A stretch of 64,000 nucleotides of DNA. It comes from Podarcis cretensis (Eukaryota). How positions within the stretch are numbered: the first letter of the stretch is position 1; each line of letters begins with the position of its first letter. The translations under genes and the position numbers were made by a program. The stretch is from NCBI GenBank assembly GCA_951804945.1, contig OX638150.1:44020001-44084000 (forward strand), given 5' to 3'. The notes below the pieces were generated by a model. That model was not told the origin of the DNA, searched no databases, and saw nothing but the letters and a program-made list of their open reading frames with translations. Below, in pieces: positions 19,501 to 63,924 of this stretch.

Positions 19501-22500
19501 CTTATAGTGAGCAACAATTAATTCTTCCGCATTGTTTCCGATGTGTTGCTTTCAGATTGTCAAAGCGCTCTACTATCTGAAAGAGAAGCATGGTGTCATC
19601 CATAGAGATGTGAAGCCTTCAAATATCTTGTTGGATGAGAGGGGGCAAATCAAATTGTGTGACTTCGGGATCAGTGGGAGGCTGGTGGACTCGAAAGCCA
19701 AAACCCGGAGTGCTGGTTGCGCAGCATATATGGCGGTAAGAGATGGGCAGATGGTGAGAGAACAGCAGCAGGAATCTTGCTGTGCTGTGATGGAACTGAG
19801 CAAAAAAAAAAAAAAGTGACATTGTATGTTGCTCTTCCTACAAATTGCTCAGAATAGCTTGTGTATGATTTAATTAAATACTCTTTATTTGTTAAACTTT
19901 TATGTCATTCTTCCTCCAAGCTGCTTTGCATGGGTTGGGTATGATCCCTAGCAGTCTCTCATCCTAGCAGTGCTCTAGGCCAGACCCACTTTGTTGCAGC
20001 CGTTGAAATGCACCATGTGTCACGATAACTTCTCTGCAGGACTAAGAATTCCATCGCTTGCATTTTACTGTAGAAAGTTGTCACTAGATTTGGCCTGAGC
20101 TTTTGGGAAACTCTATGGCAACTATTATGCAGATGCTGTTACGGTATCAAAACAGCCTGCAATTTTGTCTTAGCAACATCCAGTGGGATTCAGCTAAGTT
20201 TTTGTGTGCACGGAACAAGGCCCACCCATGCAGTGAGACTCTCCCTCCTCTCCCCATTTACCCATGTGCTTCCCCCTAAATCTGCTCTGGAAGGTTGAGG
20301 GAACCCACAGAACAGGTTTAGGAGGATGGGGGAAGTCTTGCTGTGTGAGTGGCATTCATTCTGTGCACACCCACACCCACTTCGTGCTGCATTGAATTCC
20401 ACCCATGGTTTGGCTTCTGTAATTAGGGGAATCTTGCTAGGTGCAGATAAAGAGACCAGTGGCAAAGAGGTTTTATTTTTGACTGAATTTGTAATAATCT
20501 TTTTGTTTCCAGCCTGAGAGAATAGATCCCCCTGATCCCTCAAAACCAGATTATGATATCCGTGCAGATGTTTGGAGCCTGGGCATCTCTCTGGTAAGTA
20601 AAACCTGCTCCCCATTTTTAAGGAAATTTGTGTACCCTTGTTGGGATCTTCAAGTTCTGGATCATATCTCAATCATCCTTTAATGTATGCAGTCCTTAAT
20701 ACATGACATAAACAGCAATAAGCTTTGGGGTGAGTTTTTCTTCTCTTTTCTTCAGTTTTTTTTAATGGAGTTAACTGATTCAAAGGAGGCTGAATTCTGG
20801 CTATCCTGAACCCCATTTTTGTCTCTACTATTGAGGCTGGATAAGCCAAGTGATCATTCTGTTCTACATTTCTTCCCTTTCTTGCTCTCGTCTCTTTCTG
20901 TACAATCATTTAGAATTGTGTTGTTTGTATGGATTTTTATCTATTTACTTTTGTTGTAACTGCAAATAGTGGCATATACATCACTGAAGCATCATTGAAG
21001 AGATGCTGATGATAATTATGCTTTTTAGATTATTTCTGTTTTTAATCCCTTATTTTTCATTTCTCTACCACCCCTAATGCAGGTTGAGCTGGCTACAGGT
21101 CAGTTCCCCTACAAGAACTGTAAAACAGATTTTGAAGTCCTCACCAAGGTGTTGCAGGAAGATCCTCCCCTTCTCCCAAACAACATGGGATTTTCTGTGG
21201 ATTTCCAGTCCTTTGTGAAAGACTGGTGAGTGAAGTGCCTTAAATTCATGTTATGTAGAGCGGCTGCTTCAACATTTCTTACATAGACAGGAAGCCCTGC
21301 AGTTCCAGCTGGTTCCTCACTTTCCTGCTGAACTCTTGCACACCAGTTGCTTTCTCAGATATTGGCTAATGTTAATTCTAGGACACCCCATCTTCAGTAC
21401 TATTAATAGCGTATGTAAAAGAGAATTGGAACTGTTCTGCTTGTTCAAACTGGTACCATGCTCTTCTAAAGAAAGAACTCAACCTGTGCTGGTGATTTCC
21501 ACCTAGAAAGGAAATCCCATATCTGCCTCCAGGACAGCTGTGCTTAAATTCTGGGCTAGCACATCGTTGTGTATGACCTCTTATTGTCTACACATTCCTG
21601 GCTCTTACCTCTTTTCTGTGTCTGATGTACCGGTTCTAAAGGTGTAAGAAGTCCTTCATTGCCACGGAAATAAAAAGTAACATGTCGTAAGTTAGTTACA
21701 TTTCCCCATCTTTCCTTGTTTCCATTCCTTCCAACAATTAGGCAGCTGTAAATGAATTGCACTCCTTGCAACTGGCATTGACACTTCCACAAATGTTCAA
21801 ACAGAAAATCAACTTCTGATAGTGATTGTTTTGTTCCAGTTAACTTTGAGCTTATGTGTCCAACTTGCCACTCCTGGATTCCATCAGACAACCCCATGTA
21901 AGATTGTTGCAAACTGCCATAGGATACTGGGCATAGGAAGTTGACCCTGAAAGATTATTGGTACGGCAGGATAATGGACTTCATCCTGTTTGGCTGAGAG
22001 AGTTTGAAACTTAGAGTAGACCTATGTCAATATGAGCTCTGTTTGCAAAGATCCATTATGCATCAGGTAGTGGAAACATGCTGTGTTGGTTGCTCCATAA
22101 AATAAATTGGATCCTGTGTTTTGAATGTGTGTTTATGTTATTTCTAGCCTTACTAAAGATCACAGGAAGAGACCAAAGTACAACAAGCTACTTGTAAGTA
22201 TTGGTCACACCTCTTTCATTGTGAATATTTTAAAAAATCCCCCAGGGCTTGGAAAAAGGCCACAGTGGGTGCTTCTGCCAACCCTTAAAGTTTAGAAATA
22301 ACCAGTAACATTTACTGGAACTAGTTTGTGCCAACTGGCACGGAAGCTGAGATTAATAAAGTGACATCCTTTCTTTTCTCCACATAGTTTCTTTAAAGGA
22401 GAGGGAAAGTTCTTTTACTTTTTTATTTGACTTTGGTCAGATTTTTCCCTGCTCATGTTTGTTGCTGTTGTGTATCCTCCTTGTTGCTTAGCTATAGCTG

Positions 22501-37800: not shown

Positions 37801-39455
37801 GTGAGTTCCTGGGATCTGACAAGGGAGGAGAGACAGACAGACACACACACACACACACAAAGAGAGGGAAAGGGAGCGGATGCTTCTTCTTGTAAGTCTC
37901 TGCTTTCTTAATACCTTTCCTCCACTGCTGAATTCCCTTAGAAATAAACAGCTTGCCACATAAACCATGCCCTCCTCCCCTCTCACTTGTAACTTGACCC
38001 TCCTTGTGGGCTTAGAGTTATTTTTAACCTCCCATTGACCCGCATAACTTTTTTATTATTGTTGTTCATTAAACTATGCCAGTCTGGAGATAGGAGGCCT
38101 TGAATTGGCTCACGGTTTCTGCATCCCCTGGATTAAGCGCTGCGAGTCCTCCCACTTGCTTCCTGTCCTTCAGTTCAGGTAGAACTTTGTCCCACCTCCT
38201 CCTCCTCTATTTTTCTCCTAACCTGCATCTAGATCCACTGGCAGTGGGAGAGCTCTGCTGGGCAAGGTAAGTGTTCCTCTGGCATTCCCTCTCCACGTTC
38301 GGGAGCTTGGCTTGCTGGGAGGTGGAACATGTCCTGGAAACTTTTAATTACAGCCAGTCTAATCCTGTAACACTGAATCTTGCTGTCTCAATGCATCCTT
38401 CTTTTAAAACAGAGCCATAAAGGTGGGAGGGAAGTCTTTGTGGGAAACTTGAGACAGGAGGGAAGAACGCCTTTTTGACTGACAGAAGTTGGGACCAGAA
38501 GGTGAGGGAGAGTAAGTTGCCTTCAGAGAAAGATTGCAGATCGAGTCTATAGAACTGAGAAGCAAGTGTTGGGCAAAATCCTTCTGGCTAGAGACAGATC
38601 ATCACAGTGGATAATACTGAGCAAAGTGGACCGATGATCTGGATTAGGCTCACACATCTTCCCATTTTCAAGGAGTAGAAGCCATTAGATAGTAAACAAT
38701 TTGGAAGCAGGGTAAGCTCTGGGGTCCCCAATGTCTCACTCATGACCATCATAGTGCCCTCCTCTTGGTGCCAGTCAAGATCCCCTGACCCCATTTTTTT
38801 TTAAGAAATTGAGGCTTTTTGTGATGAGGAGGGGGGGTTTGCGGGGGAGACATTGCCTGCTTTTTGTGTCACATTTATTTCTTTTGAGTGGGTAGGTGTT
38901 TAGTCTGGTTTCTGGGGATGAGGGAGGGGTGTCTGAGCATCACCCATTTTTCTTCAGTGAAATGGGTATTCTTAGATTTCTGACTGTTTGCTCAGATTGA
39001 AAAGGTTGGAGACCCTGGCTATATGCTATACCCTTTCACTTTGTGGTGTTAATCGGAAGGGTGGCCACCACCTTCCCCTCTGCTTACAATTGCAGAAGCA
39101 CCCACTGCACCAAAATGAAGTCCTTCCACCACCCCATCCTGCTATGATTGCGCATATGACAGGATAGTTGAAGGAATGTATAATCCGTATTAAGGGAGAC
39201 TGAGTATGGTCTGTATGCTTGTTTCTGTAGCAGATAGATCAGGAACGGAGAGAGGAAATGTTGAAGTTCTGTCCCAAAATCCGAACCACAAATTGACTGG
39301 TATGAGGTCTTGAGGGCTGGAAAGTGTTTCCAAGTAGCTCAGAGGTCGTGCGACGGCATTCCCTTCAACTCCTGTGCTTTCTTGCCCTGGCTTTGCTTTC
39401 TTTCCTAGGGTGGAACAAGAGGGAAATCACAGCTTTTCTTTGGGTTCTGAACACC

Positions 39456-39540
39456 ATGCATAGAAACTGCCTGCATATTGATCACCTATGGAGACAGTAC
39501 CTCCTCCTGCTGTTTGTCGTCTGGGGGTGCTCTGGGACAG
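39456..39540 (+). CDS. TGFBR3L: TGFBR3L-like signal peptide exon (MHRNCLHIDHLWRQYLLLLFVVWGCSGT)
   Basis: ACCATG start context, hydrophobic core, small residues at the cleavage site, phase-1 donor G|GTAAAG. Confidence 0.75.
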
Positions 39541-42500
39541 GTAAAGTTTAACAGAGTGGCTATTGTAAACATTTAAATGGGCTGCACAATAATTATCCAC
39601 ACCAAAGGTGTAAAACGTTTTGCTAAAACAAAACAAAACAAAAACATTATTGTAGGGGAGCTGTCCAGGATACATTGCTGTATGTATCCTGAAGTGTACA
39701 TGTAAAAAAGAAATTAGCAGTCTTAAAATGCATTTTTCTTTGCAACCTTGAATGTAGAGCAGGTCTTTCAACTTTGCTAAATAGACATGTGTGCGCTCAC
39801 ACAGAGCCATTTGGACTTGTCAAATTTTCTTCCCTTGCAGCAGAATAGGTAGATGAAGTTGTCAGAGTATAAATGTATTCAATGGGGTTTTATACTAGGG
39901 GTTTGAGGGACGTGGGTGGTGCTGTGGTCTAAACCACTGAGCCTCTTGAGCTTGCCGATCGCAAGATTGGCAGTTCAAATTCACACAATCGGGTGAGCTC
40001 CCATTGCTCTGTTCCGGCTCCTGTCAACCTAGCAGTTCGAAAGCATGCCAGTGCAAGTAGATAAATAGGTACTGGTGCGGCGGGAAGGTAAACGGCGTTT
40101 CCATGTGCTCTGGTTTCTGTCACAGTGTTCCATTGTGCCAGAAACAGTTTAGTCATGCTGGTCACATGACACGGAAAAGCTGTCTGCGGACAAACGCCAG
40201 CTCCCTCAGCCTGAAAGCAGAGATGAGCGCTGCACCCCAAAGTCAAATTCGACTGGATTTAACCATTCATGGGTCCTTTACCTTTACCATACTAGGGGTT
40301 TCCCAATTCTGCATGATGCTTCTGATGCCCTTTGTCCTGCTTCTCTTTATTGGATGTACCTTCAGTGAGCAGCTTGGATTTACAGAGTGTCCATCATTCT
40401 GTACCTGCTTATTTTTCACAGGATGCAATTTCAGTTCCTTGATAACCAAGTACACACAGCTAAGGGCACTTTTAATCTCCAGCTCGGCACTCAGTATTTG
40501 TTTTTGACATTGATTACCATAGGGCAGGTAGATGCTGCCTGTGGGTTGTTTATAGCACAGAGGCTGTTAAGCTATCTGCTGAATTCATAGCCAGCCGACC
40601 ATGGTTGCTTCCTATAAAGAGAAGAGCCCAGGCTTCCAAAGTTGACCAGGAGTCATCGTTTCTGTTCTGAATGGTGAGGGGAAGGCACTCTGCACTTGCT
40701 GTAAGGTACTTCTGCTATTTCTTCACATTCCCAAATTGGGGGGAAAACATCCACGTTGAACACTCCTGCAGCTGTACTTTGGTATCTGGTACAGCTCTCT
40801 GTGGGACATGGGTGGCGCTGTGGGTTAAACCACAGAGCCTAGGACTTGCCGATCTGAAGGTTGGCAGTTCAAATCCCTGCAATGGGGTGGCTCCCGTTGC
40901 TTGGTTCCTGCTCCTGCCAACCTAGCAGTTCGAAAGCACATCAAAGTGCAAGTAGATAAATAGGTACTGCTCATGGCGTTTCCATGCGCTGCTCTGGTTC
41001 GCCAGAAGCGGCTTAGTCATGCTTAGTCATGCTGGCCACATGACCCGGAAGCTGTACGCCGGCTCCCTCGGCCAATAAAGCGAGATGAGAGCCACAACCC
41101 CAGAGTCGGCCACGACTGGACCTAATGGTCAGGGGTCCCTTTACCTTTACCTTTACAGCTTTCTCTTCCTTTCTCATGGTGCCAGAGCATATTCTTTCAC
41201 ATGGAATGTTAAGGCAGGTTGAGTTGGTAGAATCCTCATGTGCTAAATGGAATTGTACCATTTCAGGCTGCAGGTGGTGTGTGTGTCTTTTTTTAAACCC
41301 CTCCCCCCTAAAGCTGTCTGTGTGTAAAATTCTAGTACACTGAGGAGAAAGAATTAGCTCCCTGGGGCAACTTAATAACTCTGCCCAGAAGCATAGGTAG
41401 AAATGAGAGAGCCCAGGCCAGGCAGCTCCTGAGGTCACCCTGAGAATATTTGGTAGCTTTTGTTCCTTCCAGTATTTTAAATTGAAAATTGCCTTGGTAG
41501 AAAGGCAACAAACCAGCCCAGCGTGCTCCCTACTGTGTTAGCTTTCCTATTACAAGGAACTTTTTACATTGTAGTCTCAGAATAGGATATAGTCTGGTCT
41601 GCCACCACATTCTCACCCAGTCTTATTGTTGTGTATGTAATGTGTAGCCCCCGTGCAGGGCTAGCAGCTTCCCTGTAATTATTTAATTCGTAAAATGAAT
41701 GGTCAGTGGTTAGAGCACCTGCTTTGCATGAAGTAGGTCCCAGCTTCATTTCCCAGCATCTTCAGGTAGGACTGAGGTTGTCCCTAGAGAGCTGCAGCCA
41801 GTCAGTGCAAAAGACAATACTCTCATCTTCATAATGAAAACAGACTTTAAGTAATAATTCTCTAGGATTGAGTGCCAAACATGACCACTGAAAAACAAGA
41901 GGAGTGCCATCAACATGCCCAGGAGAAACGGGGGGGGGGGGGGGGAATGGAACTAAGAGGGAGGAACCCCCCCCCCAAAAAAACCACTTTCCCACCCAGC
42001 AAAGGCTCTCCATGCTGAGTATCCTTTGGAAAAGGAATTTAAAGGGAAGGAGGAGACTGAGCCCCTTACAGTTTATAGTATAGCTGACTGAAAAAGAAAC
42101 ACTTTTTTCCCTTGTACAACTTGTACAATCTAAAAATAAGCCAGTAAGCCATTGTTAGGAGCAATTCACAGTGACCCTCCCCCCTCAGTGTGGGGACCAT
42201 GAAATGCACACCAATCCATTTCTGTCCCATCATACCAGTTCCCCCAGAGTTTCCTTGTTTTATTTTTCCCTCCATCATCCTCAGTCATTGGCCAGATATT
42301 CCATATTTTTTGTTTCTCAGACACAGAATGAATTATGCAAAAAAGAAAAGAAAAGAAAAGTTAAGCTGGTGTATCATTTTGAGCTCAGGCACCTGAGCAC
42401 TTTGTGTTTTGGGAGAAAGGGGATGCCAAATGTACAGAGTTTTGGAAACTACTTTTCTGAAACCCCGTTTCTTCCAGCATTGCTCTTCTCCTTCCCCTGC

Positions 42501-45500
42501 AGCCGCCTGGCACCATCTTGCTTGCCTCCCCATGTCTGCCTCTACCCCACATCCCGTCCTCGGCTTCTGGGAATCACTGCGAAAAGGCACCGGATGTACC
42601 AGCCGGGGCCGCTCTACCCTGGGGCAAGAAGTCCATGTCATCAGCCTGAAGAAGGGATTGCCGGCAAATGGCCAGGTATGGGAGATCCCCATCCATACCA
42701 CCTTCCCATGTATGAGGCTGTATGATGGGTCTTGCTACAGCTCCATTGGATACCCAAACAAGATGGCCGTTCAGCTTGGCACTACAGTTCAAGGTGTGCC
42801 AGTCAGTCAAAAGGGCAAAACTCCATTTCAGTCACTTCTTCACAGTTGTCAGGGCCTCTCTTAAGTCACAGAAGTGTTAGGTTAGCCAAGTTGTGAGAAG
42901 CAAAGAGGAACACTCTTGCGCAGGGCCTGCTTAGTGCTGGGGGTGGGAACATGCCTCACCTGCTGAACATCCAAGGGGTAAGTTGCTAGGCCGCCTTTGG
43001 TGGTATATCCTACCTTCTCTGGTTCTTTTCCAATCCCTTCTCCATTTCGCTCTTTGATCATGCATGGAGAAGGTACCTGTCCCCTTGATCCTCTTTCAGG
43101 TAACTCTGATAACTCTGGACCCAGATCCCCACGACAGAGGCCCCATCTTTGTGCTGTATTCCCGGAAGCCTGTGCGCTGGGTGTTGCTGTCTCCCCCTGG
43201 AAAAAACTGGACCTTCCAGGTGAGATGGGATAGAGGGCCAAAGGGCCTAGAGAACATCATGGGGATCACTGAGAGGGTCGTTGGAGTCCCTGCTCTACGC
43301 AAGCATAGAAGATGAGTGGCAGCTATGGGAAGGGTGGATGGAAAAGCTAATTTGCTACCTCCACAGCACTTTTACAGAATACTTTCAGATCTAGCTCTGT
43401 TTGTCTTCAGAAGCATCTTGTGTAGTAAGTTCCTATTCTTCCCATTTTACAGATGGGGGAAATTGAGGCTGAGGGAGGCTTGCCTAAGGCCACCCAGTGA
43501 ATCTGTGGCTGAGGTGGAACTTGAACCCAGATCTCCCAGATTAAAGTGCAGAACTGTTCAACTTTAATGCACTCCCCAGCGTGGGGTGTCAGAGAGGGGG
43601 GAGGTTCTCCAGGCTAGTATATTTTACCTTTGCCTTCCTCCTATCTACAGGTCTCCCCTGGCTCTAATGTTTCAGCCCCGGGGCCAGTGGCTTCTGCTGA
43701 GACCAACTTACCAAAGACACCCAAACGCCTGCTGAAGTGGGCACGGAGGGAGCATGGAGGGGTCACCTCTCTGGCTGAATACCGTGGAGTCAACAGAATC
43801 TACACACGCCTGGGGGCTGGCATGGGCAATGAGGGTAGATATCGGCTCTGAGGGAAAGGGTGGCATTATGGCTGTGTGTCCTACAATTCCCCATCCCTGG
43901 CCACTGGCCACCCTGGCTGGGGCTGATTGGAGTTGCAGTCCAGCAACATATGGAGAGACACAGGTTCCCCACTTTCGCTACTGCAGTGTGATAAGCAGGA
44001 GGAGGGCAGGCAGCTGGTCTTTTGGGTCCTGGGCTAATGCAGTAACTTTGCAGAAGTTGTGCAGGTCTGGGTCTGGTCAGTGCCTGGAAGGGAGACCATC
44101 CAGGAAGGAAAGATCTGTGCACTGCAATCATAGAGGGAAGATGGAATATACCGGTATACACGGTACAGATAAATAAGACTCACCAGTATCAACTGGAGAG
44201 CAGTTGCCAAAGAGTTTGCATTGCTTGCAAAAAAAAAAAGAGTAAATCGCAGCAGCTCTTCTGTGACCATTCAGTCCAGATACTTCATTCCTTTCCTTCT
44301 CCAGATAGGATTGCCCCAGCCGCTTGCAGATTAAGTAGGAATTTCCTGACCCCAGTGCACTTTGCCTCCAAGTGCCAACTCCAGCCTCTGAGAGTTTGCC
44401 TGCATCCTGACCCTCCGCAAGTCCTTGAAGTTCACATCATCCTCTCCAAAGGAGTTGCACCAAGGTGCGTGCCAGGGAGGCATCGCCAGAGCTTCAGCAT
44501 GTGGCTGTTGAACCCGGGGGGGGGGAGCAGGGGGTTGGCAAAATGTTCATAATGAGATGCCATGTCTTGAACAGGGAGGTTGAAATTGTTCTTAGTGTAG
44601 ATGGGGAAGGGGGATGGTGAGGAAGAATGAAACCTATGCAAGAGGCTGCCTATGATAAGTGACCCTTGTGTTAAAATGGATAAGATATAATAAACAGGAA
44701 CATGGAAGCTGGTTCATCTAGCCTGGTACTGCTGACACAGACTGGCAGCAGATCTCCCATGTCTTTCTCAGCTCTGTCTGGAGATGATGGGGATCGAATC
44801 TCTGACCTTCTGCATGCAGAGCAGTTGCCCTGCCACTTAGCTACGGCACTTCCCCCGAAAGTCAAGGCCAGATGGACACTGAGCCAAAAACGAGTAGCGA
44901 CAGTGGCTGGTATTAGGCCTTGAATATTGGGCAGGGATCTGTGAGTTGGGGGACGGGTGGCGTGGGGCTTCACTGGCTTCCATCATGTGCTTAATCCTGT
45001 TGGGGGGGGGCAGCCTGCTCTCTTCTAGGCCCACCCTGGCTCATTTGACTGTGGAACTTCATGCTGTCCGAAGGCCCCCCCACTGGGGACTGATCTTGAT
45101 ACTGAAGAGTGAGGGAGCTGCTGAGTGGATGGTTCACACCCACCGCCTCACTGGCCGGCTGCACGTACTGGTAGGGGCAGGACCTGCTCTGGGTATAGAT
45201 CTGTAACGCTCTAGGCCAGCTAATACACTTCTCTCTCTCCCCCTCCCCAAGTTGGTGGCAGTGGCACACATCTGGAAGGGAGCAGGGCACACATGTGCTC
45301 AAAGCCAGATACAGTGGTACCTCGGGTTACAGACGCTTCAGGTTCCAGACGCTTCAGGTTCCAGACTCTGCTAACCCAGAAATAGTACCTCAGGTTAAGA
45401 ACTTTGCTTCAGGATGAGAACAGAAATCATGCGATGGCGGCGCAGCGGCAGCGGGAGGCCCCATTAGCTAAAATGGTACCTAAGGTTAAGAACAGTTTCA

Positions 45501-48500
45501 GGTTAAGAATGGACCTCCGGAACGAATTAAGCTCTTAACCTGAGGTACCACTGTATCGCCAAGTGTGTCATCAACATCAGTACAAAACTGGGTGGGATTT
45601 ATTCCTTAATTAACCTGAGGTACCACTGTAGATGCATTATGCAGAATTGCAACCTTTCCTAGTGGAAGCAGTTTGGTAATTTTAGATGCTTGGCTTCATG
45701 CTATTATAAGGGTTATATTATGGAGGGTTCATTCTGCTAACTCCTGCCTTCACAGGCCCACTAGTGAGCTTTACCAACCCTCTTCCATAAGCGTCCCCTG
45801 CATTCTCCCTATAACTCTAGGTTTGCCTCCTCCTCCTCCAGCCTTATTTTTTTTTTTTTGCTAAAGTGAGCCAAGGAGTCTTACTTCCTGGCTCCAACTC
45901 TCCACCCCACTAGGCTACTCCCTCTTGGGAGTCTGTCTCCATGCTGCCATTTGATTCCCCTGGACCGTCTCTTGTTTATGGTGTGCCTGTTGCTGCTGCT
46001 CTCCATGTCTGGGCCTTGTATTGTAACTCAGGCTGGGATTCCTTTCTAGGCTTCGCACAAAGTCACAGTCAGCAGCACAGAAATGGATCTGCCTCTGACT
46101 GTGACCCAGCGGACGTCCCCTCGGCTGATGACCCTCGACCCTTTGCAGTTTGCAACGGAGCAGAATCTGCCTGCCTTTACATCCTACGTTGAGGCTGAGC
46201 GGGTGAACAGGTTTCTCCTTTTTGTTGGGATGAATGGTAGGTTTGGAGGGATTCAATGGACATGAATGGGAAAAGTGCCCACCAGAGAGCTTAGAGGCAA
46301 ACCACTAGTGACCGCTGCAGTAGATTCCTGGCATTTATATTCCAGTTCCTCCTGCACCATTTTACCCTAGGGTATACAACCTCAGTTTTATTTTAGGAAT
46401 GCACCAAATCAAAACATTTTCAGCATGAAAAGTATGCTTCCAAGGGGGCTGAAATGGTACACACCCAGCCAAAGCATATATTTTGGTGCTTGTTAACAGA
46501 TATTTTGCTGCTTCAGTGCCATTTTCCCAAACCCTTTTGAGAGCTTATTTCCTAGTCGTTATGTGATCTCAGCCAATCAGGATTCACGTAGGGATGATAA
46601 ATGGCATCAAATAGGCAATCAGCTGTGGCTACAATGGTAAAATCAAGAAGGGCAAATGAAACTGCATTGCATTCTGAATGCTGAGCCCGTGGAAGAGAAC
46701 AGGAAGGCGTGCCATATTATGTCAGAATGTGCAGACCTTTCACTTAGGTAACAGAAGGAATAGATACAGGGTTGCCTCACAGGCCTCTGTGAGCTGGGCA
46801 CATGTGTCCTTTGGGGCCACACTGGTGATGCTTGGAATAGATCATATTCTGATTAACAGCAGCAGTGTATAAGGCATATGATTGCATCACACCCACACAC
46901 CTGTATTTCCTTTGTAGGGGCCACACCTCCTCTAGAAGAGCCAACACTCTTTTGGCCCATATTTCTGCATCCTCCCAGTTTCACAGCCTCTCAACAGGAC
47001 TTTGCAGAAGCCAACACAGCTGGCGGGGAGGTGACAAGGCAAGACTTTGGGGGAGAGGATGGTTCCGTTACCTACCCACCGTCTACAGCCAAAGCAGAGG
47101 GGACAGAATCTATCTTGTGTCTTGGGGACCGTAAGCCTATTCTTGAAAACCAGGACACTCAGAGAGTGAGTAGCCAAGGATGACATCTCCAGAAGGACAG
47201 AGGGAATCTATTTCCTACAGTGCCATTTCATGTGGATGTGGATGGATGGGTATTCTCTTGCCGTTGTACATCAATACCGCTCCACAGACCTGTTTTTCTC
47301 CTGCAGGTCTCCTGTGTTTCACCTTCTCCAACCCAGATATCTCCTTCAGAAGCCGCAACGGCCTTCCAGGATCCCCACCTTCACCTTGGCAATGCCCTCA
47401 TTAACCTAGAGCTCTACAACACAGAGGCTTTTGCCAAGCAACTTGGACCTTTTGTCGTCTCAGCCAACAGCCTTGTCTTTGTGGAGGTAAAGCGGACGAT
47501 GAATATGCAAGAGCTGGCATTGGACGCAGCAGTTACACGCCAGAATCTTGTCCCTAAGTGATTCCTCCTCTGTCCAGAGATCTGGTGGTTTGCAGCACTC
47601 CCTGTTTCTCTCAGAGCCTCAAACAGGGCAGTTGACCTGCTTGTTGCTTTATGGGGGGGTGATAAACTTACACTGTAGCTCTCAAAGGGACGAAGTAACA
47701 GGGGTGATTTGCCATCACGTTTTACCAGCTTAGAAGGGCAACGTGCATCCCAGGGAAGGTCATGATTTTGTAAGCAAAACAGCAAGGAATAGACTTAGCA
47801 GATTTCATACTGCGGCCCAATTCAAGGTCCAACTTTATGGTTGGTTGGCAATGAAAAAATAGGTATAAAAAGACAATTCCTGGATGCCAAGAGCCAAGAT
47901 TGGGGCAAGTATTCTTTGGTGAGAGAACCCCAGCAGAAATTTAAAACAACAAACATCTAGCAAAGAAAAGCATGGAAATATAGGTTGTTATTCTTAGAAT
48001 ATGACTTTCTAAGTTCCTTCCAAATTTCCCTCTTCTTCTGGCATAGAAAATACCATGTGTGTGGCAAGTTCAAAATGGTTTACTTACAGACTCTGCAATG
48101 ATCAGATTCATGTGCTTTTCAGTGCAGCATTCAGAAAACGTTGGCAGCAAAACTGGCACTTGTGTTTGCAGACTAGATGGTGTTTCCTTTTTCCTCCAGG
48201 CTTCCTTGGCAACCTATGACTTGTCTCTCAGCTTCACCATCCAGAAGTGCTTCATCTCTAGCTCCTCAGATGCTTCAGAGGCCTCAGCGTATCTGCTGGT
48301 CCAGCACGGCTGTCCTGTGGCCGCCGCCCAAGTCAGGCTGTGGAAACCCGAGCTGCCAGGCCAGGCCCAGGCGTTGCCTCTGGGGTACCAGGAACGCCAG
48401 CGACTGAGCTTTGTGTTGAAGCCACGGTCCAATGCCTCCATCCACTTCTTGCACTGCCGTCTGACGCTCTGCAGCAGGGGTTCTCAGGACTCCGCCAGAC

Positions 48501-51500
48501 CCAAGGGCGCAATCCCCAAGGTCTCTGGCTCCCTGGGCTAGGGAACCCTGTCTTCTAGCAGCTATCTGAGGGCCTGATAGCGCTACTGCTTCAGAATAGG
48601 CTCTCCTGATTGGGGATGCTTATGGAGGAAACTGATATGCCACTGCAAGCTCTCCACTTGGCCCAGAAGTAGCCAAAATGGTGCCCTCTGCTCAATGAGG
48701 ATGCTGGCTTCCCAATTGCCAGCACCTCAGCTAGCATGGCCATTGGCCAGGGGTGATGAAAATTGTAGTCAATTGGTATCTAGGGGGGCACCATGTTGGC
48801 TTATTATTATTGCCTCCTCTGAACAGCAATATCTCTCAAGTGTTTCAAGCAGAGGTATTTCCTTTGATGTTTGACTGGGGGTTGAATGGGGGCCCCTCTG
48901 TGTGCTTTGCCCCTTAGCTATGACTGGCCCCTTCCAGAAATCCTTGGTCCATCTCTGCTCTGAGGGTGGAAAGGGTGGTGCCTAAGAAAAGATGGAATAA
49001 AGAGGAAAGCGAAACCCCTTGGAGGGGTGAAAACCCTCTGGAATGGGTCTGTGCAAAAGAGCCTCCCAGTTAGCTGTAGAAATGAGCTGGCTGGGCTTAT
49101 GGAGAAGCAGGTGGGATTAACTGGGCCAAGGCCTAGCTCCCATTGCTGGGATGAGGCACTCTTCTGAGGCAGGTTTTTGTTTCAGTGTCAGTCTGAGAAC
49201 GAGGCCTGCAGGGGAGAAGAGGAGGCGGTCCCAAGCCGCTTCCAGCGCACCATCACAAAGCCTATGCTAGTGACTGTGGAGACTCCGCTCAGAGCTGCCT
49301 CTCCTGGCCCGAAACCAGGTACTTTCCTGTGGGTTCTAGATAGCAGCCAGGAGAGAGCAGTTGGCTTGAAGGCCTTGCAGTTCAGCACCCTGGCTCCATG
49401 CTGGAGAAAACTGTCCTGCAGAGTGAGTGAGGAACTGAAAGAAACTGATGGGGGAGTCCTGCTTGCTGGGGAGATGGAAGTGTCTCCTTGTGCATCTCTC
49501 CAGAGCAGAGGTGGTGGACCTGTAGCCCTCTAGATATTCTTGGACTCCAGCTCCCATCACCTCAAGCCACCATGGCCAATGGCAAGGGATGATGGGGCTT
49601 GTAGTTCACCAGCATCTCCTACCCAGGAGATGGATGCCTTGGATCTCACCATGCTACAAGCCCAGACTTTGCCAATGGCATCTTACATGTTCATCCTGAG
49701 TGAAGCAAAGTAGCAATGATGGGCAGAGTTATGCACTCATTTCTTTTCTCCCCCTTGCCACCCGGAGGCTATTTTCTTCAGACACTCCCTCAGATTATCT
49801 GTTCCTTCCTTGACTTTGGTGTCTTTTTCTGCAGCTAAGGTCCCAGACAAACAACAAGGAAAAGCACCAAAGGATGCAGCCCACAAGCGGAAGACTCAGG
49901 TAGTCCGAAGTAAGTAAACATCCCCATGCTCTCTTGCTGGCCTTGTTTCCCAGGGATTTGGGGACTGAAATTGGTTTTAGACTGGAATTCTACTCTTGGC
50001 TCTAGGGGGGGGGGGAGTGGAGTTGAGGATTCCTGCAGCTGTGGGCTAGAGCAAGAACTCTGATCCTCAGACTTTTTCATTCTGTATTACCCCATTTCGG
50101 GCCCTGGCCCATCTCCCCTTCCTGGACAGAGAGTGAGAACGAATTTTTGTGCTCCTTCTCCACACATCCTCCCCATATCCCGCTTCTCTGTAGCTGCAGC
50201 TGCGCCAGGCCAGACGGTCCCCGCAGTAATTGGGATAGCTATTGCAGCCTTCCTCATCGGCATCTGCCTCACTATTGGGCTCTGGTTCATTTACACCTAT
50301 ACAGGTAGGTATAGAGAGGGTCCCCTCACTGCTGTAGGTACCATCTATTTTACTTGAATGGTTGATTTTTGGCAAAGCCTGCGGAAGCACACCTTAGCAT
50401 TTCTGTAAAGGGAGACTGGGCCACATGTCCGAGATGGGAAAACTCTAAATTATAGATCATGACACCTTTCCTCAACCTATTGCCTTCCAGCTGTTTTGGA
50501 TTTTAGCTCTCATCACTAGCTAGCCATGCTTGCTGGGCCTGGAGTTGTTCTCTCAAGCATCTGGAGGGCACCAGGTTGGGGCTGGTTGGCTTTTGCCAAA
50601 TGTCTGCCTCCATCTCTTCCGTCAGAGCCAGAATATGCATTATGCAGTCACATGTACCAAGGTTGAGTTACAGTAGGGCATGGATCTTGGGGTGGAAGCT
50701 GGCAGCCAAATGATTCCCATTGCCGTTGGCTTCTAGGAAGGATCATAGAGTGGGAAACATGACCTTTAGGCGATCGAAGATGCAGCAGCTGAAATACATA
50801 TTGGAATCAATGTTACAAAAAAGTCTGGAGGGGGATTATGTGTCTAGGAAATTCACATCATTATTCATATTGGTCTGCTTTTGCACATTTGTACTTGTCC
50901 ACCCATCCACCATGGAAAAAATAAAGAAATAGAAACAGAACAAATAGGATGATAAAAAGGCCAGACAGCCAAAGGAGGAAAGTAAAGGTCAGAGGGGAGG
51001 GAGAGGGATTTATGTGCACATCCATGATATTGATCCCAGTCTGCTTTTTATTTCTGGTTATTTTTTATTATTAGACAGTGCACATGCATTTTCACACCTT
51101 TCTCTGAAATGAGGCGGTCTGAACAAAGCTTTAATTACTAAATTTTAATGCCAGCCTTGAACTTGTAGGTGAGTCGGCTTCCGGGAGGAGGAGCCAGCCT
51201 GCAGCTGAGACTGGTAAGGTGACACATTGGCTTTTGAGAAATCCTTCATTTGAGCAGAGGCTTTGATTCTGCACTCATTTCCATCTCTGGCTGTGAATGG
51301 AATCGGTGGTGCACACTTATAATAACTTTTAATTATTTTTCAATGTTTAATTGTTTCAAACTGGTTCTTTAGTTGATAATTTCAACATTATAAGCACCTT
51401 AGAGGTTTGACTACAACTAAACAGTATACAAAATTTGTTAAATAATAATGAATGCATATTGCATGTGTGTCCAGTTCAGCAACCACAGGCACATATGCAC

Positions 51501-52113
51501 CTGGAGACCTTCCTGGTGCCTGCAAGCCCCCTTCCCTCTGCTGAAATAAGGCTTCCAAAAAGTCACCTATTGTAGTTAATATAAGGCAGGGAGAGTTATC
51601 TTCCAGCTATACCTAGAGATGCTGGTGAACTGAACCTGGGACCTTCTGCATACACCTGGACTCGTTTGAAGCATCCATAATGCAAAGGCAGAGCCAGGAA
51701 TTCAAGAAAGCTGTCCTTACTAAAGCAGGTTGCTGTATTCAAGAGAGCCAGTTTGTTGCCTCCAGGATTAGCCAGTTTTAAATATACCCAAGCTAGGGCA
51801 GTTTTGCTTCATCTCAATACTTAAAAGTGGAACATTACAAATATGCTAAGACTTGGAGAAACTAACATATGCAAATAGGAAGAGGGTGCATTTGTTTACC
51901 TCTGGAAGGGGGTTAGTGTGGTGGTGAGATGGATGGTTGCAGTGCAATTGGGGGCGGGTGGGGGGCACTGCTGCATTTTCTTTCTTCCTCCTGCTAGACC
52001 CTGTAGGACCATCTGCTCCAAAGCGTGAAGACACTTTGTCAGCTCCAGCTGCAGCTGGCCCTGCACGTCGCACGTGGTGCTCTACCCTAAGAAGCCTCTA
52101 CCGAAGAAGGTAA
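39456..52113 (+). CDS. TGFBR3L: TGF-beta type III receptor-like protein (betaglycan/endoglin family), ~759 aa: signal peptide, orphan domain, vestigial ZP-N, ZP-C, TM, cytoplasmic tail; exons 39456-39540, 42503-42675, 43100-43219, 43651-43834, 44305-44464, 45029-45170, 46050-46236, 46918-47165, 47307-47486, 48200-48520, 49186-49318, 49835-49909, 50194-50304, 51169-51213, 51998-52113
   Basis: 15 exons with AG/GT borders and compatible phases sum to 2280 nt with no internal stop. Motifs align exon by exon to TGFBR3 (HPV..GCxSRG..QEVHV; LLKWARREHGGVTS; NFL; EVHII; LILILK; NLELYNTE; CFIS..CP; RLSFVLKP..FLHCRLTLC; TITKP; GIAIAAFLIG..LWFIY). The symbol comes from the position directly downstream of MAP2K7. 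Confidence 0.88.
39907..40288 (+). mobile_element. Sauria SINE with 13-bp TSD ATACTAGGGGTTT
   Basis: Homologous to the 34959 copy; ACCTTT tail; TSD at 39892-39904 and 40289-40301. Confidence 0.9.
40803..41154 (+). mobile_element. Sauria SINE
   Basis: Same head, body and (ACCTTT)n tail; short TSD-like tacagct. Confidence 0.9.
41697..41820 (+). mobile_element. Old tRNA-derived SINE fragment (a related reverse-strand copy lies at ~44730-44850)
   Basis: tcagtggttagagcacctgctttgcatg.. is a tRNA-like head without an intact cloverleaf. Confidence 0.45.
42503..42675 (+). CDS. TGFBR3L: TGFBR3L-like orphan domain exon (HPVLGFWES...GCTSRG...QEVHVISL)
   Basis: Matches betaglycan HPVQALMES..GCASRG..QEVHVLNL. 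Confidence 0.9.
43100..43219 (+). CDS. TGFBR3L: TGFBR3L-like orphan domain exon (VTLITL...PIFVLYSRKPVRWVL)
   Basis: Matches betaglycan VTLHL..VVFLLNSPHPLVWHL; phase 0-0. Confidence 0.85.
43435..43575 (-). mobile_element. MIR/CORE-like SINE fragment
   Basis: cccattttacagatggggaaattgaggct..gaacttgaacccagatctcc is typical of the CORE-SINE region. Confidence 0.55.
43651..43834 (+). CDS. TGFBR3L: TGFBR3L-like orphan domain exon (VSPGSNV...LLKWARREHGGVTSLAE..NRIY); 3' border 43834 (GT) or 43819 (GC)
   Basis: Matches betaglycan VSEGSVV..LLNWARKEYGAVTSFTE..NIYIKVG. Confidence 0.88.
44305..44464 (+). CDS. TGFBR3L: TGFBR3L-like orphan domain exon (DRIAPAACRLSRNFL...EVHIILS)
   Basis: Matches betaglycan DQVFPPKCNIGKNFL..EVHIIEL; phase 1-2. 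Confidence 0.88.
45029..45170 (+). CDS. TGFBR3L: TGFBR3L-like orphan domain exon (LILILKSEGAAEWMV..GRLHVL)
   Basis: Matches betaglycan LILILKCKKSVNWVI..GSLKII; phase 2-0. Confidence 0.88.
45312..45553. mobile_element. Tc1/mariner-type MITE with TIR CAGTGGTACCTC and TA TSD; an extra right TIR at 45611-45628
   Basis: TA|CAGTGGTACCTCGGGTTA ... TAACCTGAGGTACCACTG|TA. Confidence 0.85.
46050..46236 (+). CDS. TGFBR3L: TGFBR3L-like last orphan domain exon (ASHKV...FTSYVEAERVNRFLL)
   Basis: Matches betaglycan APNSI..ITSYTMAPVANRFHL; phase 0-1. Confidence 0.88.
46918..47165 (+). CDS. TGFBR3L: TGFBR3L-like linker plus ZP-N first strand (SILCLGDRKPILENQDTQR)
   Basis: Phase 1 acceptor and phase 0 GTGAGT donor; end resembles betaglycan SVKCDNEKMIVAVEKDSFQ. 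Confidence 0.7.
47307..47486 (+). CDS. TGFBR3L: TGFBR3L-like ZP-N last strand/IHP/ZP-C start (VSC...GNALINLELYNTE...VFVE)
   Basis: Matches betaglycan FNC..HGNITFNMELYNTD..VYVE; phase 0-0. Confidence 0.88.
48200..48520 (+). CDS. TGFBR3L: TGFBR3L-like ZP-C core exon
   Basis: FTIQKCFIS..LLVQHGCP..RLSFVLKP..FLHCRLTLC is the ZP-C signature. Confidence 0.92.
49186..49318 (+). CDS. TGFBR3L: TGFBR3L-like ZP-C end and external hydrophobic patch (CQSENEAC...RTITKPMLVT)
   Basis: Matches betaglycan CVPPDEAC..KTFTKPLAVI. Confidence 0.9.
49835..49909 (+). CDS. TGFBR3L: Probable basic stalk exon (KVPDKQQGKAPKDAAHKRKTQVVR)
   Basis: Good acceptor tttttctgcag and donor A|GTAAGT; 75 nt; symmetric phase 1-1; open frame. 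Confidence 0.6.
50194..50304 (+). CDS. TGFBR3L: TGFBR3L-like transmembrane exon (VPAVIGIAIAAFLIGICLTIGLWFIYTYT)
   Basis: Matches the betaglycan/endoglin TM [26 protein letters not shown]. Confidence 0.92.
51169..51213 (+). CDS. TGFBR3L: TGFBR3L-like juxtamembrane cytoplasmic exon (GESASGRRSQPAAET)
   Basis: Resembles betaglycan GETAGRQQVP; tag|GT..G|GTAAGG. Confidence 0.7.
51998..52113 (+). CDS. TGFBR3L: Probable last coding exon (DPVGPSAPKREDTLSAPAAAGPARRTWCSTLRSLYRRR*); may instead splice at 52109 to 53692 (ending ..RF*)
   Basis: Strong polypyrimidine acceptor; phase-compatible open frame; no homology support. Confidence 0.5.
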
Positions 52114-52275: not shown

Positions 52276-53210
52276 TAATAATAATTCAATAATTTATTAT
52301 TTATACCCTGCCCATACGGCTGGGTTTTCCCAGCCACTCTGGGCTGCTTCCATCAAAATATTAAAATACAATAGTCCTTCAGATATTAAAAGCTTCCCTA
52401 AACAGGGCTGCCTTCAGATGTCTCCTAAAAGTCTGGTAGTTGTTTTTTCCTTTGACATCTGGTGGGACAGTATTCCACAGGGTGGGAGCCATTACTGAGA
52501 AGGCCCTTTGCCTGGTTCCCTGTAACTTTGCTTCTTGCAGTGAGGGAACCGCCAGAAGGCCCTCGGCGCTGGAGCTCAGTGTCTGGGCAGAATGACGGGG
52601 GTGGAGACGCTCCTTCAGGTATACTGGACCGAGACTGTTTAGGGCTTTAAAGGTCAGCACCAACATTTTGAATTGTGCTTGGAAACGTACTGGGAGCCAA
52701 TGTAGGTCTTTCAAGACTAGTGCTATGTGTTCTTGGCGGCTGCTCCCAGTCACCAGTCTAGCTGCCGCATTCTGGATTAGTTGTAGTTTCTGGGTCACCT
52801 TCAAAGGTAGCCCCATGTAGAGTGCATTGCAGTAGTCCAAGTGGGAGATAACTAGAGCATGCACCACTCTGGTGAGACAGTCTGCAGGTAGAAAGGGTCT
52901 CAGCCTGCATACCAGATGGAGCTGGTAAACAGCTACCCTGGACACAGAATTGACCTGCGCCTCCATGGACAGCTGTGAGTCCAAAATGACTCCCAGGCTG
53001 CACACCTGGTCCTTCAGGGGCACAGTTACCCCATTCAGGACCAGGGAGTCCTCCATACCTGCCCGCCCCCTGTCCCCCCAAAACAGTACTTCTGTCTTGT
53101 CAGGATTCAACCCCAATCTGTTAGCCGTCATCCAATCTCCAACCGCCTCCAGACACACTCACAGGACCTTCACTGCCTTCACTGGTTCCGATTTGAAAGA
53201 GAGATAGAGC
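52276..53210 (-). mobile_element. 5'-truncated L2-clade LINE carrying the C-terminal part of the RT ORF
   Basis: ORF 52379-53158: WMTANRLGLNPDKTEVL, SLGVILDSQLS, LDYCNALY, LQLIQNAAARL, LHWLPV; AAT-rich tail. Confidence 0.9.
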
Positions 53211-61564: not shown

Positions 61565-63619
61565 TCATTTGCTCAGGGCTTCTTCGAAGATGATCTCGCC
61601 ATTGGGCTCGGTGGCAGAGGCAGGGTCGTCCACATCGCTATCCGTGGTACCGTCGCTCTCCTTGCCGGAGCTCTCAGCCCCCCGTAGAAAGTGCGTGTTG
61701 TGGGGCGACAGCGGATACAAGACATCCTGCAGGGCACCTACCACCATGGGGCTGGTCAGCAGCTCCTCGTCGGAAGAGTGCAGCGAGTCGTCATCCACTG
61801 CCAGGTGACTCACAATGTGGATGCCGTCAAAGCCCATGGAGTCCTCAAAAGGCTTCTGTCCCTTCATCAGCCGAATCTGCAGGGAGAAGGCGTTAGGGCA
61901 AAGATAGGGGGGGGGGTCCTGCGAACCCTCAGAGTACAACTCCCACTGTCTCTGACCCTTTGGCCATGATGGTTGGGGCTGACAAGAGTGGGGAGCCCCA
62001 ATGTATCCAGAGGGACGCAGGCTCCCCACGACTGCACTGGGACAGCCATGATGGACTTGGCACTCTGCCTAATGGGACCGTTAGATGACATTAACTCTGA
62101 TGCAGAGAAAGAACCCACGGTGGAGAGGACGCCTCACGCAGAACATGCACAAAAAGCTCCTGAAAACAGTGGTGATCCTGTGCTCAGGGAATAAGTTGAA
62201 ATGGAAGCCGCGCCCCAGATCAGAGGGTTATCAAACAACATATACAGTCTCCACCCTGGTTGGAACAGAAGAGCACATTTGTCTGTGTTACATGAACATC
62301 CCATCCCAGGGTTGGCAAGGAATCTGGGCTGTGAAAATGAATAACTTTTGAGAGGGAAGACTTTTCCGCAGGTGTGCGAGAGGCAGAGATGGCTAGCTTT
62401 ACAGCAAGAAAAAGGGGTTGTTGTTTTTTACATCACATAGGCGTGGGGGGTAACTTACTCTGCACCTTCCATCATTACCCTAGTTCTCGCCCACTGAAAT
62501 CTCCTTCCTATGCCCTGGTGAGAGTCTTTGGAGCTCCTTTGCAGTGAGTTCCAACTGGTAGCCAACCACCTGGTTGACTCGCACCTTAAAAGCTGACTTC
62601 TGATCTCTATCAGCTCCTGAGGAAATCAGCAGTTTTGTAAGCCCCAGTCGCTTATGTCTGTTCTCCAGCTGGAGGCCCTGCACAGAAATAGGCAGCTGGG
62701 GAGAAGGAATGGGGACACAGACGGAGGCGTATTTGTATTCTTCGATTGCAAACAATAAATATTAAATCTTCAAAAAGAAAAACAGGCAGCCGTGACTTGA
62801 TGCAGGGTGCTAACGGAGGCCAGCAGAGAAGACACCAGAAGTCACACAACCCCAACCCCTTGGTGGATTCCTCCTCCCTTTCTCCTACTAGTTTGGGCTC
62901 ACCTCTGCCTTGAGCTCATCAATCTGATCCTTGAGTTCACGGATGTACTGGGAGGAGTCGGAGTTGTTGAGCTGGCCCTGAATCATCCCTTCTTCCCTCT
63001 GTGTGGAAGAAAGAAGAGATGGGAATTTACAAGGGTCAGATGCTTGGCAGAGAAGGAAGTGGAGAGAAAGCACATTTGCTGTTTCCTCCTCCCCTTTGTA
63101 TGTATTATTTCACAGACTGCACAAATGAGCAAGCACTTTGTCTACACTATACAAATTTGACACAGTCCATGTGGCTGATTGTTTACATTTTGAAAAAGGG
63201 AATTGGAGAAACAAGACAGTCTGTATTTCATGTACAGAATTCCTTATGTAAACAAAAGTTGAATGCTTGATCTTCAGGTCTCTTAAAAAGAAACACAAAA
63301 CTTGTAAGCTGTGTAAGCAGAACTAAATAAGGGGACCAACACTGGCTACCCCTGGTTTAAACAATGACAAATAAAACATGTTTTTAGCCCCCAGACCTCT
63401 CAGCTAGCTGCAGACACAAAAGGAACAACAGTTCATACAACAAGAAACAAATACTCCTGGGAGGAAAATGCTGCTTTAGGTACAAGGCAGGTTCATTGCT
63501 CCTTATCCTCCTTGCTCCCTAACCTGGATCTCCAGCTCAGCAATCCGCTGCCGCATCTCTGCCACTGCAGCCATGCTGTCGGCTTCTCGCAGGCGCACAG
63601 CCATCACCTCTTCTTTGCT
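61565..63619 (-). CDS. EVI5L: EVI5-like Rab-GAP (TBC/coiled-coil), last three coding exons: 63524-63619, 62903-62998, 61565-61876
   Basis: SKEEVMAVRLREADSMAAVAEMRQRIAELEIQ / REEGMIQGQLNNSDSSQYIRELKDQIDELKAE / IRLMKGQKPFED..DDDSLHSSDEELL..ALQDVLYPLSP..SDGTTDSD matches the EVI5L C-terminus; AG/GT borders, all phase 0. Confidence 0.93.
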
Positions 63620-63924
63620 CTGAAACAGAAAATGCAAGCCAGTGGCAGCAGCCCAGTGGAGTGCAAGCAACGAGGTCAGCCAATGGGGGCGGTGGGCAGT
63701 ACATTGGGGGCTGGGGGGAGGACCACCTGCAGTTTCTTTTGGCAGCTGAAGATCTCACGAGACCCACAATGAGTCACTAAACTACCTGGAATTCCCAGGA
63801 ATACACACAGGACACTGAATAAAATCCAAGACAGCGGCTAAAATCAAAGATGTCAGACATGCAGGAGCCCAGTCTCCTCTTCAGAATAAACAGACAAAAT
63901 CTGGGCTCTCCATGGATGTGTTTA

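What the first reader, a model, noticed from the sequence alone, without database searches (positions are those of the whole stretch)
46918..47486. ZP-N domain hollowed out by loss of two whole exons, including the GAG-attachment exon
Seen: the exon ending SILCLGDRKPILENQDTQR (phase 0) is only 141 nt from the exon starting VSC...NLELYNTE (phase 0). Known (from recall): in betaglycan the equivalent exons (..SVKCDNEKMIVAVEKDSFQ and FNCS..NMELYNTD) are separated by two exons. These encode the ZP-N core with Cys2/Cys3 and the acidic DSSG/ESG glycosaminoglycan sites. Inference: only the first and last ZP-N strands survive, with the Cys1-Cys4 pair. That gives an orphan + ZP-C receptor without proteoglycan chains, a possible intermediate on the way to the minimal mammalian TGFBR3L.
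Basis: partly seen in the sequence, partly recalled or inferred. Interest (0 to 1): 0.75.

Follow-up and report, generated by a model that had tools for sequence, protein, structure and literature searches.

The report
Lizard TGFBR3L lost its ZP-N core
This lizard gene for a hormone co-receptor (TGFBR3L) lacks two exons that turtles, salamanders and fishes keep, leaving what is predicted to be a floppy linker in place of a domain; frogs, birds and mammals likely lost the same piece separately, so it is likely a parallel trimming rather than a step towards the mammalian form.

Summary
In this lacertid TGFBR3L, exon 46918-47165 splices to 47307-47486 across a 141-nt GT-AG intron, phase 0 to phase 0. 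Spliced contigs from three studies show the junction, and a DNA contig spans it, so the assembly is not collapsed. Turtle orthologues carry 84 extra residues exactly here (54 + 30, the ZP-N core); 27 of 27 squamate models and the tuatara model lack them.

The remnant is predicted disordered rather than two surviving strands. Both cysteines persist in only 13 of 27 squamates. The betaglycan GAG motifs are already missing from most TGFBR3L proteins that keep the exons. Turtles keep the core, so the amniote ancestor had it and the lizard state is not ancestral to mammals.

The larger result: TGFBR3L is an old full-length betaglycan paralogue. On the accepted species tree it likely lost the ZP-N core four times (frogs, mammals, lepidosaurs, birds) and the orphan domain three times. 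I did not find this described in eight literature searches. Ligand binding is untested.

The parts
39456..52113 (+). TGFBR3L coding span, 15 exons, 764 aa: signal peptide, orphan domain, linker, ZP-C, transmembrane helix, tail
   Evidence: only junctions within 46000-48560 were checked in RNA contigs
42503..46236 (+). Orphan-domain exons 2-7 (42503-42675, 43100-43219, 43651-43834, 44305-44464, 45014-45170, 46050-46236)
   Evidence: E 2.5e-29 to human betaglycan orphan domain; Foldseek E 2.6e-23 to 9FDY_C
46918..47165 (+). Exon 8: linker ending in the decayed first ZP-N strand with Cys1 (residue 423)
   Evidence: profile score reached by 1 of 1000 shuffles; matches turtle exon 8, 0 of 200 shuffles
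47166..47306 (+). 141-nt GT-AG intron at the place where turtles have two exons of 54 and 30 codons (ZP-N core)
47307..47486 (+). Exon 9: Cys4 remnant (residue 441), interdomain linker and start of ZP-C
   Evidence: (0 of 1000 shuffles)
48200..49318 (+). ZP-C exons 10 and 11 (48200-48520, 49186-49318)
   Evidence: (PF00100)
50194..50304 (+). Transmembrane exon 13
19556..19735 (+). MAP2K7 exon, upstream neighbour used as synteny evidence
   Evidence: E 2.5e-35 to MAP2K7 structures

Best explanation
[quoted passage not shown] Shown: the junction, the absence of the core, its presence in turtles, salamanders, caecilians, lungfish, coelacanth and ray-finned fishes. Inferred mechanism (about 0.8): both exons are phase 0-0, so skipping or deleting them keeps the frame; ZP-N does not bind ligand in betaglycan, so skipping was tolerated (turtle isoform models skip exactly these exons) and the DNA was then deleted or eroded. 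An intron remains, which argues against replacement by a spliced cDNA. The same loss likely recurred in frogs, mammals and birds (about 0.7). Inferred function (about 0.5): inhibin co-receptor as in mouse, without GAG chains and probably without betaglycan-type TGF-beta binding.
For: Junction in 3 of 3 RNA-like runs and a contiguous DNA contig. 19 of 19 squamates gapped over the 84 columns that 5 full turtle forms fill; 2 turtle isoform models have the same gap. A third isoform model skips only the 54-codon exon and fixes the 54 + 30 split. The linker matches turtle exons 8 and 9 but not the core exons (P0001: 0/200 and 0/200 against 67/200 and 161/200 shuffles). AlphaFold2: lizard 404-508 unstructured; turtle ZP-N strands at pLDDT 72-89 over 381-460. 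Across 22 squamates the remnant is 51-54% identical, like the plain linker (50%), against 74% for orphan and 72% for ZP-C. Turtle core groups with TGFBR3L cores, apart from betaglycan (99/98). Loss-only count on the accepted species tree: 4 core losses, 3 orphan losses. In the tailed frog Ascaphus the Cys1 strand is still recognisable (0 of 1000 shuffles), 16 residues before the next Cys. ZP-N and GAG chains do not contribute to ligand binding in betaglycan (PMC11865472, introduction passage; PMC2119924, abstract). Betaglycan's TGF-beta contact residues F250, D253, L210, N82 and the FG helix (PMC11865472, sections 8 and 9) are replaced in the lizard. Sheep gene order MAP2K7; TGFBR3L (PMC13238802, table passage) matches the window.
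Against: The ZP-C gene tree alone does not prove independence: it needs only 2 unordered changes, and the AU test did not reject a lepidosaur + mammal clade (p = 0.0575); it also joins birds with mammals (94/84), probably from composition. Tuatara, frog, bird, salamander and caecilian architectures rest on database gene models, not on genomes or reads that I examined; the tuatara model is partial and its Cys4 match is not significant (566 of 1000). Cys remnants in three other frogs, two birds and marsupials were not significant. With one turtle in the alignment MAFFT laid the core against the lizard's exon 8 (48-54 columns); argues against that, though tuatara against exon A reached 10 of 200. 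Low pLDDT is absence of a prediction, not proof of disorder. The RNA contigs come from related organisms, of unrecorded tissue. No ligand binding was tested.
Confidence: 0.75

Rival explanations
1. The lizard form is the ancestral amniote intermediate from which minimal mammalian TGFBR3L descends; turtles would have regained the core or carry a hidden paralogue.
For: AU test does not reject lepidosaurs + mammals as one clade (p = 0.0575), and the gene tree needs only 2 unordered changes. Marsupial models keep a Cys just before ZP-C at the Cys4 position.
Against: Turtle core is of TGFBR3L type, not copied from betaglycan (99/98; 48-54% identical to amphibian cores in exon A against 36-42% to betaglycans). 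Turtles group with lepidosaurs in the free tree (94/91). Several turtle models are filed under the MAP2K7 name, which points to the same locus.
Confidence: 0.07
2. The remnant is a selected mini-module: a Cys1-Cys4 disulfide loop that positions the orphan domain or, where one Cys is left, links two receptors.
For: Cys1 is kept in 25 of 27 squamates and both cysteines in 13 of 27 plus tuatara; four frogs keep two cysteines 16-18 residues apart, as in this lizard (423 and 441).
Against: Cys4 is absent in 14 of 27 and both are absent in two Anolis; remnant identity equals that of plain linker; no structure predicted.
Confidence: 0.2
3. Assembly collapse or mis-annotation: the core exons exist but are missing from this assembly, or a donor at 47131 gives another structure.
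For: None found.
Against: A DNA contig with its own variants spans the intron; three studies' contigs splice 47165 to 47307; the 47131 GT is not conserved; 27 of 27 squamate models lack the core.
Confidence: 0.01
4. The lizard protein works like betaglycan, presenting TGF-beta with orphan and ZP-C across a flexible tether, just without GAG chains.
For: Both ligand-binding folds are present and conserved; in betaglycan they sit on opposite ligand monomers with no ordered ZP-N (PMC11865472, section 6); a 116-residue linker remains.
Against: Key contact residues of both domains are replaced; mouse TGFBR3L ZP does not bind TGF-beta2 (PMC8673766, discussion passage).
Confidence: 0.12

Closest known systems
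Mammalian TGFBR3L (inhibin B co-receptor; PMC8673766)
   Same: Orthologous lineage in the ZP-C tree, downstream of MAP2K7, ZP-C + transmembrane helix, no ZP-N core, no GAG motif
   Different: Mouse protein is 297 aa with one ZP domain; the lizard protein is 764 aa and keeps the whole orphan domain and a 116-residue linker. Ligand and pituitary restriction are untested in lizards.
Betaglycan / TGFBR3
   Same: Orphan, ZP-C, transmembrane order; folds match; exon 8/9 flanks carry Cys1 and Cys4
   Different: No ZP-N core, no Ser534/Ser545 equivalents, TGF-beta contact residues replaced, separate clade (99/97)
Turtle TGFBR3L (database models)
   Same: Orphan + ZP-C, same flanking exons; isoform models P0028 and P0035 skip the same 84 residues
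   Different: Full forms keep a folded ZP-N
Nematode standalone ZP-C proteins (PMC7456536, passages)
   Same: Repeated loss of ZP-N with ZP-C kept under selection
   Different: Cuticle-type proteins of another lineage with whole-domain loss; here an exon-exact internal loss in a signalling co-receptor

Membership tests
TGFBR3L orthologues | ZP-C groups with mammalian TGFBR3L, not with betaglycan | tested here: met
   tetrapod clade with mammals 99/97; betaglycans apart 99/97
TGFBR3L orthologues | Lies downstream of MAP2K7 | tested here: met
   sheep order in PMC13238802. SNAPC2 was not seen downstream in the window
TGFBR3L orthologues | Type I membrane protein with signal peptide, ZP-C and transmembrane helix | tested here: met
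   (signal peptide judged by eye, no predictor run)
TGFBR3L orthologues | Single extracellular ZP domain only, as in mammals | tested here: not met
   full orphan domain present
TGFBR3L orthologues | Binds inhibin B selectively; gonadotrope-restricted expression | not testable with these tools
   tissue of the runs not on record; a Pogona embryo sex-determination study lists TGFBR3L as differentially expressed (PMC8049264, passages)
Betaglycan (TGFBR3) | Orphan domain OD1/OD2 | tested here: met
Betaglycan (TGFBR3) | Complete ZP-N with four cysteines | tested here: not met
   (PF23344 in 0 of 19 squamates; it also missed one full-core turtle)
Betaglycan (TGFBR3) | Acidic Ser-Gly GAG sites in ZP-N | tested here: not met
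   no Ser-Gly in 26 of 26 parsed lepidosaur linkers (5 rows not parsed) nor in the window's printed linker
Betaglycan (TGFBR3) | TGF-beta contact residues (F49, L210, F250, D253; N82, I161) | tested here: not met
   against PMC11865472 sections 8 and 9; sequence comparison only

The most novel reading that the evidence does not exclude
TGFBR3L began as a full-length betaglycan twin and was stripped convergently in four tetrapod lineages through the same frame-preserving exon pair, first skipped and then deleted; reptiles and fishes keep an orphan domain under selection but with a rewired ligand loop, which binds a TGF-beta-family ligand other than TGF-beta, a second receptor function that mammals, birds and amphibians lost.
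Probability: 0.3. Interest if true: 0.75.

Novelty: new variant of a known kind. Interest (0 to 1): 0.5.

Why it matters
TGFBR3L is known from mammals as a one-domain inhibin B co-receptor and a fertility target, and what makes it inhibin-B-specific is stated as unanswered (PMC8673766, discussion passage). The natural series found here (full length in fishes and turtles; orphan + ZP-C in lizards; ZP-N + ZP-C in salamanders and caecilians; ZP-C alone in frogs, birds and mammals) gives ready constructs to ask when that specificity arose and what the reptile orphan domain binds. It is also a clear candidate case of repeated, exon-exact domain loss. The lizard deletion on its own is a modest, tolerable loss of a domain already known to be dispensable for binding.

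Tried and rejected
No whole genome is held for this window, so the lizard's own betaglycan and all non-window exon structures were not read from DNA. No RNA holder is on record as RNA; four of 22 runs were laid, on 46000-48560 only, so junctions outside that stretch rest on GT-AG fits and homology. tblastn for core remnants in the window found nothing credible. No crocodilian or monotreme orthologue was among the named hits or the 30 of 150 representatives looked up by name; these searches are word-limited, so this is not absence. Profile tests for Cys1/Cys4 remnants were not significant in Xenopus (74 of 1000), Rhinophrynus, Engystomops, two birds, three marsupials and two placentals. In one search the exon 8 cut for one of four turtles (P0219) was mis-parsed at 396 aa; it dilutes but does not create the signal. 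The Atlas did not name the downstream gene and added only betaglycan-type clusters for the linker + ZP-C part. Left out of the squamate count: P0005, P0024, P0027 (second models of species already counted). Literature searches gave no paper on TGFBR3L architecture outside mammals; subscription papers are not covered, and the supplements of PMC8673766 (fig. S3 alignment) were not read. Earlier scan findings: none.

Full report
What the window holds. The region is a lacertid locus with MAP2K7 upstream (exon 19556-19735, E 2.5e-35) and a betaglycan-like gene at 39456-52113. Fifteen exons with AG/GT borders give one open frame of 764 codons, 735 of 763 residues identical to Podarcis muralis TGFBR3-like P0001. 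It has an orphan domain and a ZP-C domain by sequence and by fold. In a ZP-C tree of 50 proteins it falls in a tetrapod clade with mammalian TGFBR3L (99/97), apart from betaglycans (99/97). Sheep have the order MAP2K7; TGFBR3L (PMC13238802, table passage). I treat it as the TGFBR3L orthologue.

The observation. Exon 8 (46918-47165) ends in phase 0 and exon 9 (47307-47486) starts in phase 0, 141 nt apart; the intron has a stop in each forward frame. Contigs of three RNA-like runs from three studies and two related organisms join 47165 to 47307 with GT..AG ends and no depth in the intron. A DNA run of the organism that best holds the stretch covers 46798-47908 in one contig, with five other letters and a 16-nt intronic deletion. 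The GT at 47131 is AG in the three RNA-like runs. Only 4 of 22 runs were laid, and only on 46000-48560.

What is missing. Five full turtle forms have 84 residues at this junction that 19 of 19 squamates lack; two turtle isoform models (Trachemys X7, Mauremys X8) lack exactly the same 84. A Chelonia model that skips only the first part fixes two units of 54 and 30 residues, which implies phase 0 at all three borders. The first unit holds Cys2 and Cys3. The second aligns to the human betaglycan segment with Ser534 and Ser545 (PMC10870443, passages). One alignment with a single turtle laid the core against the lizard's exon 8 instead. A direct test rejects this: seven lepidosaur linkers match turtle exon 9 in 7 of 7 cases (0 of 200 shuffles) and exon 8 in 6 of 7 (at most 3 of 200), while core matches ranged from 10 to 166 of 200. 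Betaglycan's exon borders were not read from DNA.

What is left. AlphaFold2 on P0001 gives confident orphan and ZP-C domains and pLDDT under 50 without secondary structure over 404-508. The turtle control folds ZP-N strands from 380 to 489. Among 22 squamates the two remnants are 51% and 54% identical, the plain linker 50%, orphan 74% and ZP-C 72%. Both cysteines occur in 13 of 27 squamate models, Cys1 alone in 12 (all six snakes, two anguimorphs, two phrynosomatids, one gecko, mostly through a start about ten residues further into exon 9) and neither in two Anolis. So the strands have likely decayed into a tether, and the Cys pair is not required across squamates, though Cys1 persistence in 25 of 27 leaves some role open.

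GAG chains. No Ser-Gly occurs in 26 of 26 parsed lepidosaur linkers or in the window's linker, so the receptor likely lacks chains there. But 11 of 18 TGFBR3L-lineage proteins with a ZP-N also have no Ser-Gly between Cys1 and ZP-C, and of the other seven only a coelacanth model resembles a betaglycan site, whereas 4 of 4 fish betaglycans with that segment have the DGSG motif. The motif was likely lost long before the exons.

Where it sits in evolution. Named hits, alignment and Pfam give this series from database models. Orphan + ZP-N + ZP-C: sturgeon (second core exon absent from the model), bowfin, gar, teleosts, turtles, and partial models of lungfish and coelacanth. ZP-N + ZP-C without orphan: two caecilians, two salamanders. 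Orphan + hollow ZP-N + ZP-C: squamates and a partial tuatara model. ZP-C only: four frogs, two birds, marsupials, placentals. Frogs keep two cysteines 16-18 residues apart before ZP-C; the Cys1 strand is significant in Ascaphus only (0 of 1000). The turtle core groups with TGFBR3L cores, not betaglycan (99/98), so it was inherited. Counting losses only, on the accepted species tree (my own knowledge), the core was lost four times and the orphan domain three times. Against this: the ZP-C gene tree alone needs only two unordered changes, and an AU test did not reject lepidosaurs + mammals (p = 0.0575). The independence argument thus rests on the species tree, single-copy orthology and gene models. 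Crocodilians and monotremes were not found among named hits.

How it most likely works. Shown: splicing and domain content. Inferred: both exons preserve frame, and ZP-N with its chains is not needed for ligand binding in betaglycan (PMC11865472, introduction passage and section 6; PMC2119924, abstract), so skipping was tolerated and the DNA was later deleted; a retained intron argues against replacement by spliced cDNA. A 116-residue tether remains, against 176 in turtle. Residues that betaglycan needs for TGF-beta (PMC11865472, sections 8 and 9) are replaced: F250 and D253 of the binding loop, L210, N82 and the FG helix. Mouse TGFBR3L binds inhibin B and not TGF-beta2 (PMC8673766, passages). 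I therefore put inhibin co-receptor through ZP-C at about 0.5 and betaglycan-like TGF-beta presentation at about 0.12. The orphan domain is as conserved as ZP-C yet lacks the TGF-beta loop, which is unexplained.

Novelty. The proteins are in databases as TGFBR3-like. Eight searches gave no paper on their architecture outside mammals; the library lacks most subscription papers and I read no supplements. Repeated ZP-N loss is known in nematode ZP proteins (PMC7456536, passages). A Pogona study lists TGFBR3L as differentially expressed in embryos (PMC8049264, passages). Interest 0.5.

Noticed in passing
window 44464 to 45014/45029: Two AG acceptors 15 nt apart add or drop five residues exactly in the loop that binds TGF-beta in betaglycan; squamate models differ in which they use.
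   Followed up: partly
window 47334-47337: An in-frame AG 30 nt into exon 9 matches where snake and anguimorph models begin this exon, which drops Cys4; the contigs laid here use 47307.
   Followed up: partly
window 47450 region and start of exon 48200: A ZP-C cysteine (GPC motif) kept in most TGFBR3L from fishes to marsupials is Phe in lacertids and absent in the placental rows; most other squamates have a further Cys ten to twenty residues on that lacertids lack.
   Followed up: no
window 61565-63754, minus strand: Coiled-coil exons of a convergent gene that I recall as EVI5L, which lies upstream of MAP2K7 in sheep; this would mean a local rearrangement. The Atlas did not confirm the name.
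   Followed up: partly
window 52379-53158, minus strand: A 259-aa stop-free frame resembling the end of a LINE reverse transcriptase (recalled likeness, L2/CR1 type) just after the TGFBR3L stop.
   Followed up: no
window 47850-48140: A high-copy repeat in intron 9: DNA depth up to about 92,000 against about 59 in flanks.
   Followed up: no
proteins P0029, P0035, P0036, P0037, P0042: Turtle TGFBR3L models are filed as MAP2K7 isoforms, suggesting read-through or merged annotation at this locus.
   Followed up: no
proteins P0052-P0057, P0063: Ray-finned fish TGFBR3L-lineage proteins are often named plain TGFBR3 and carry long acidic inserts inside ZP-C.
   Followed up: no
window 39215-39450: The P. 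muralis model extends 44 residues upstream of the Met at 39456 through an extra short intron; other squamates start at the equivalent of 39456.
   Followed up: no
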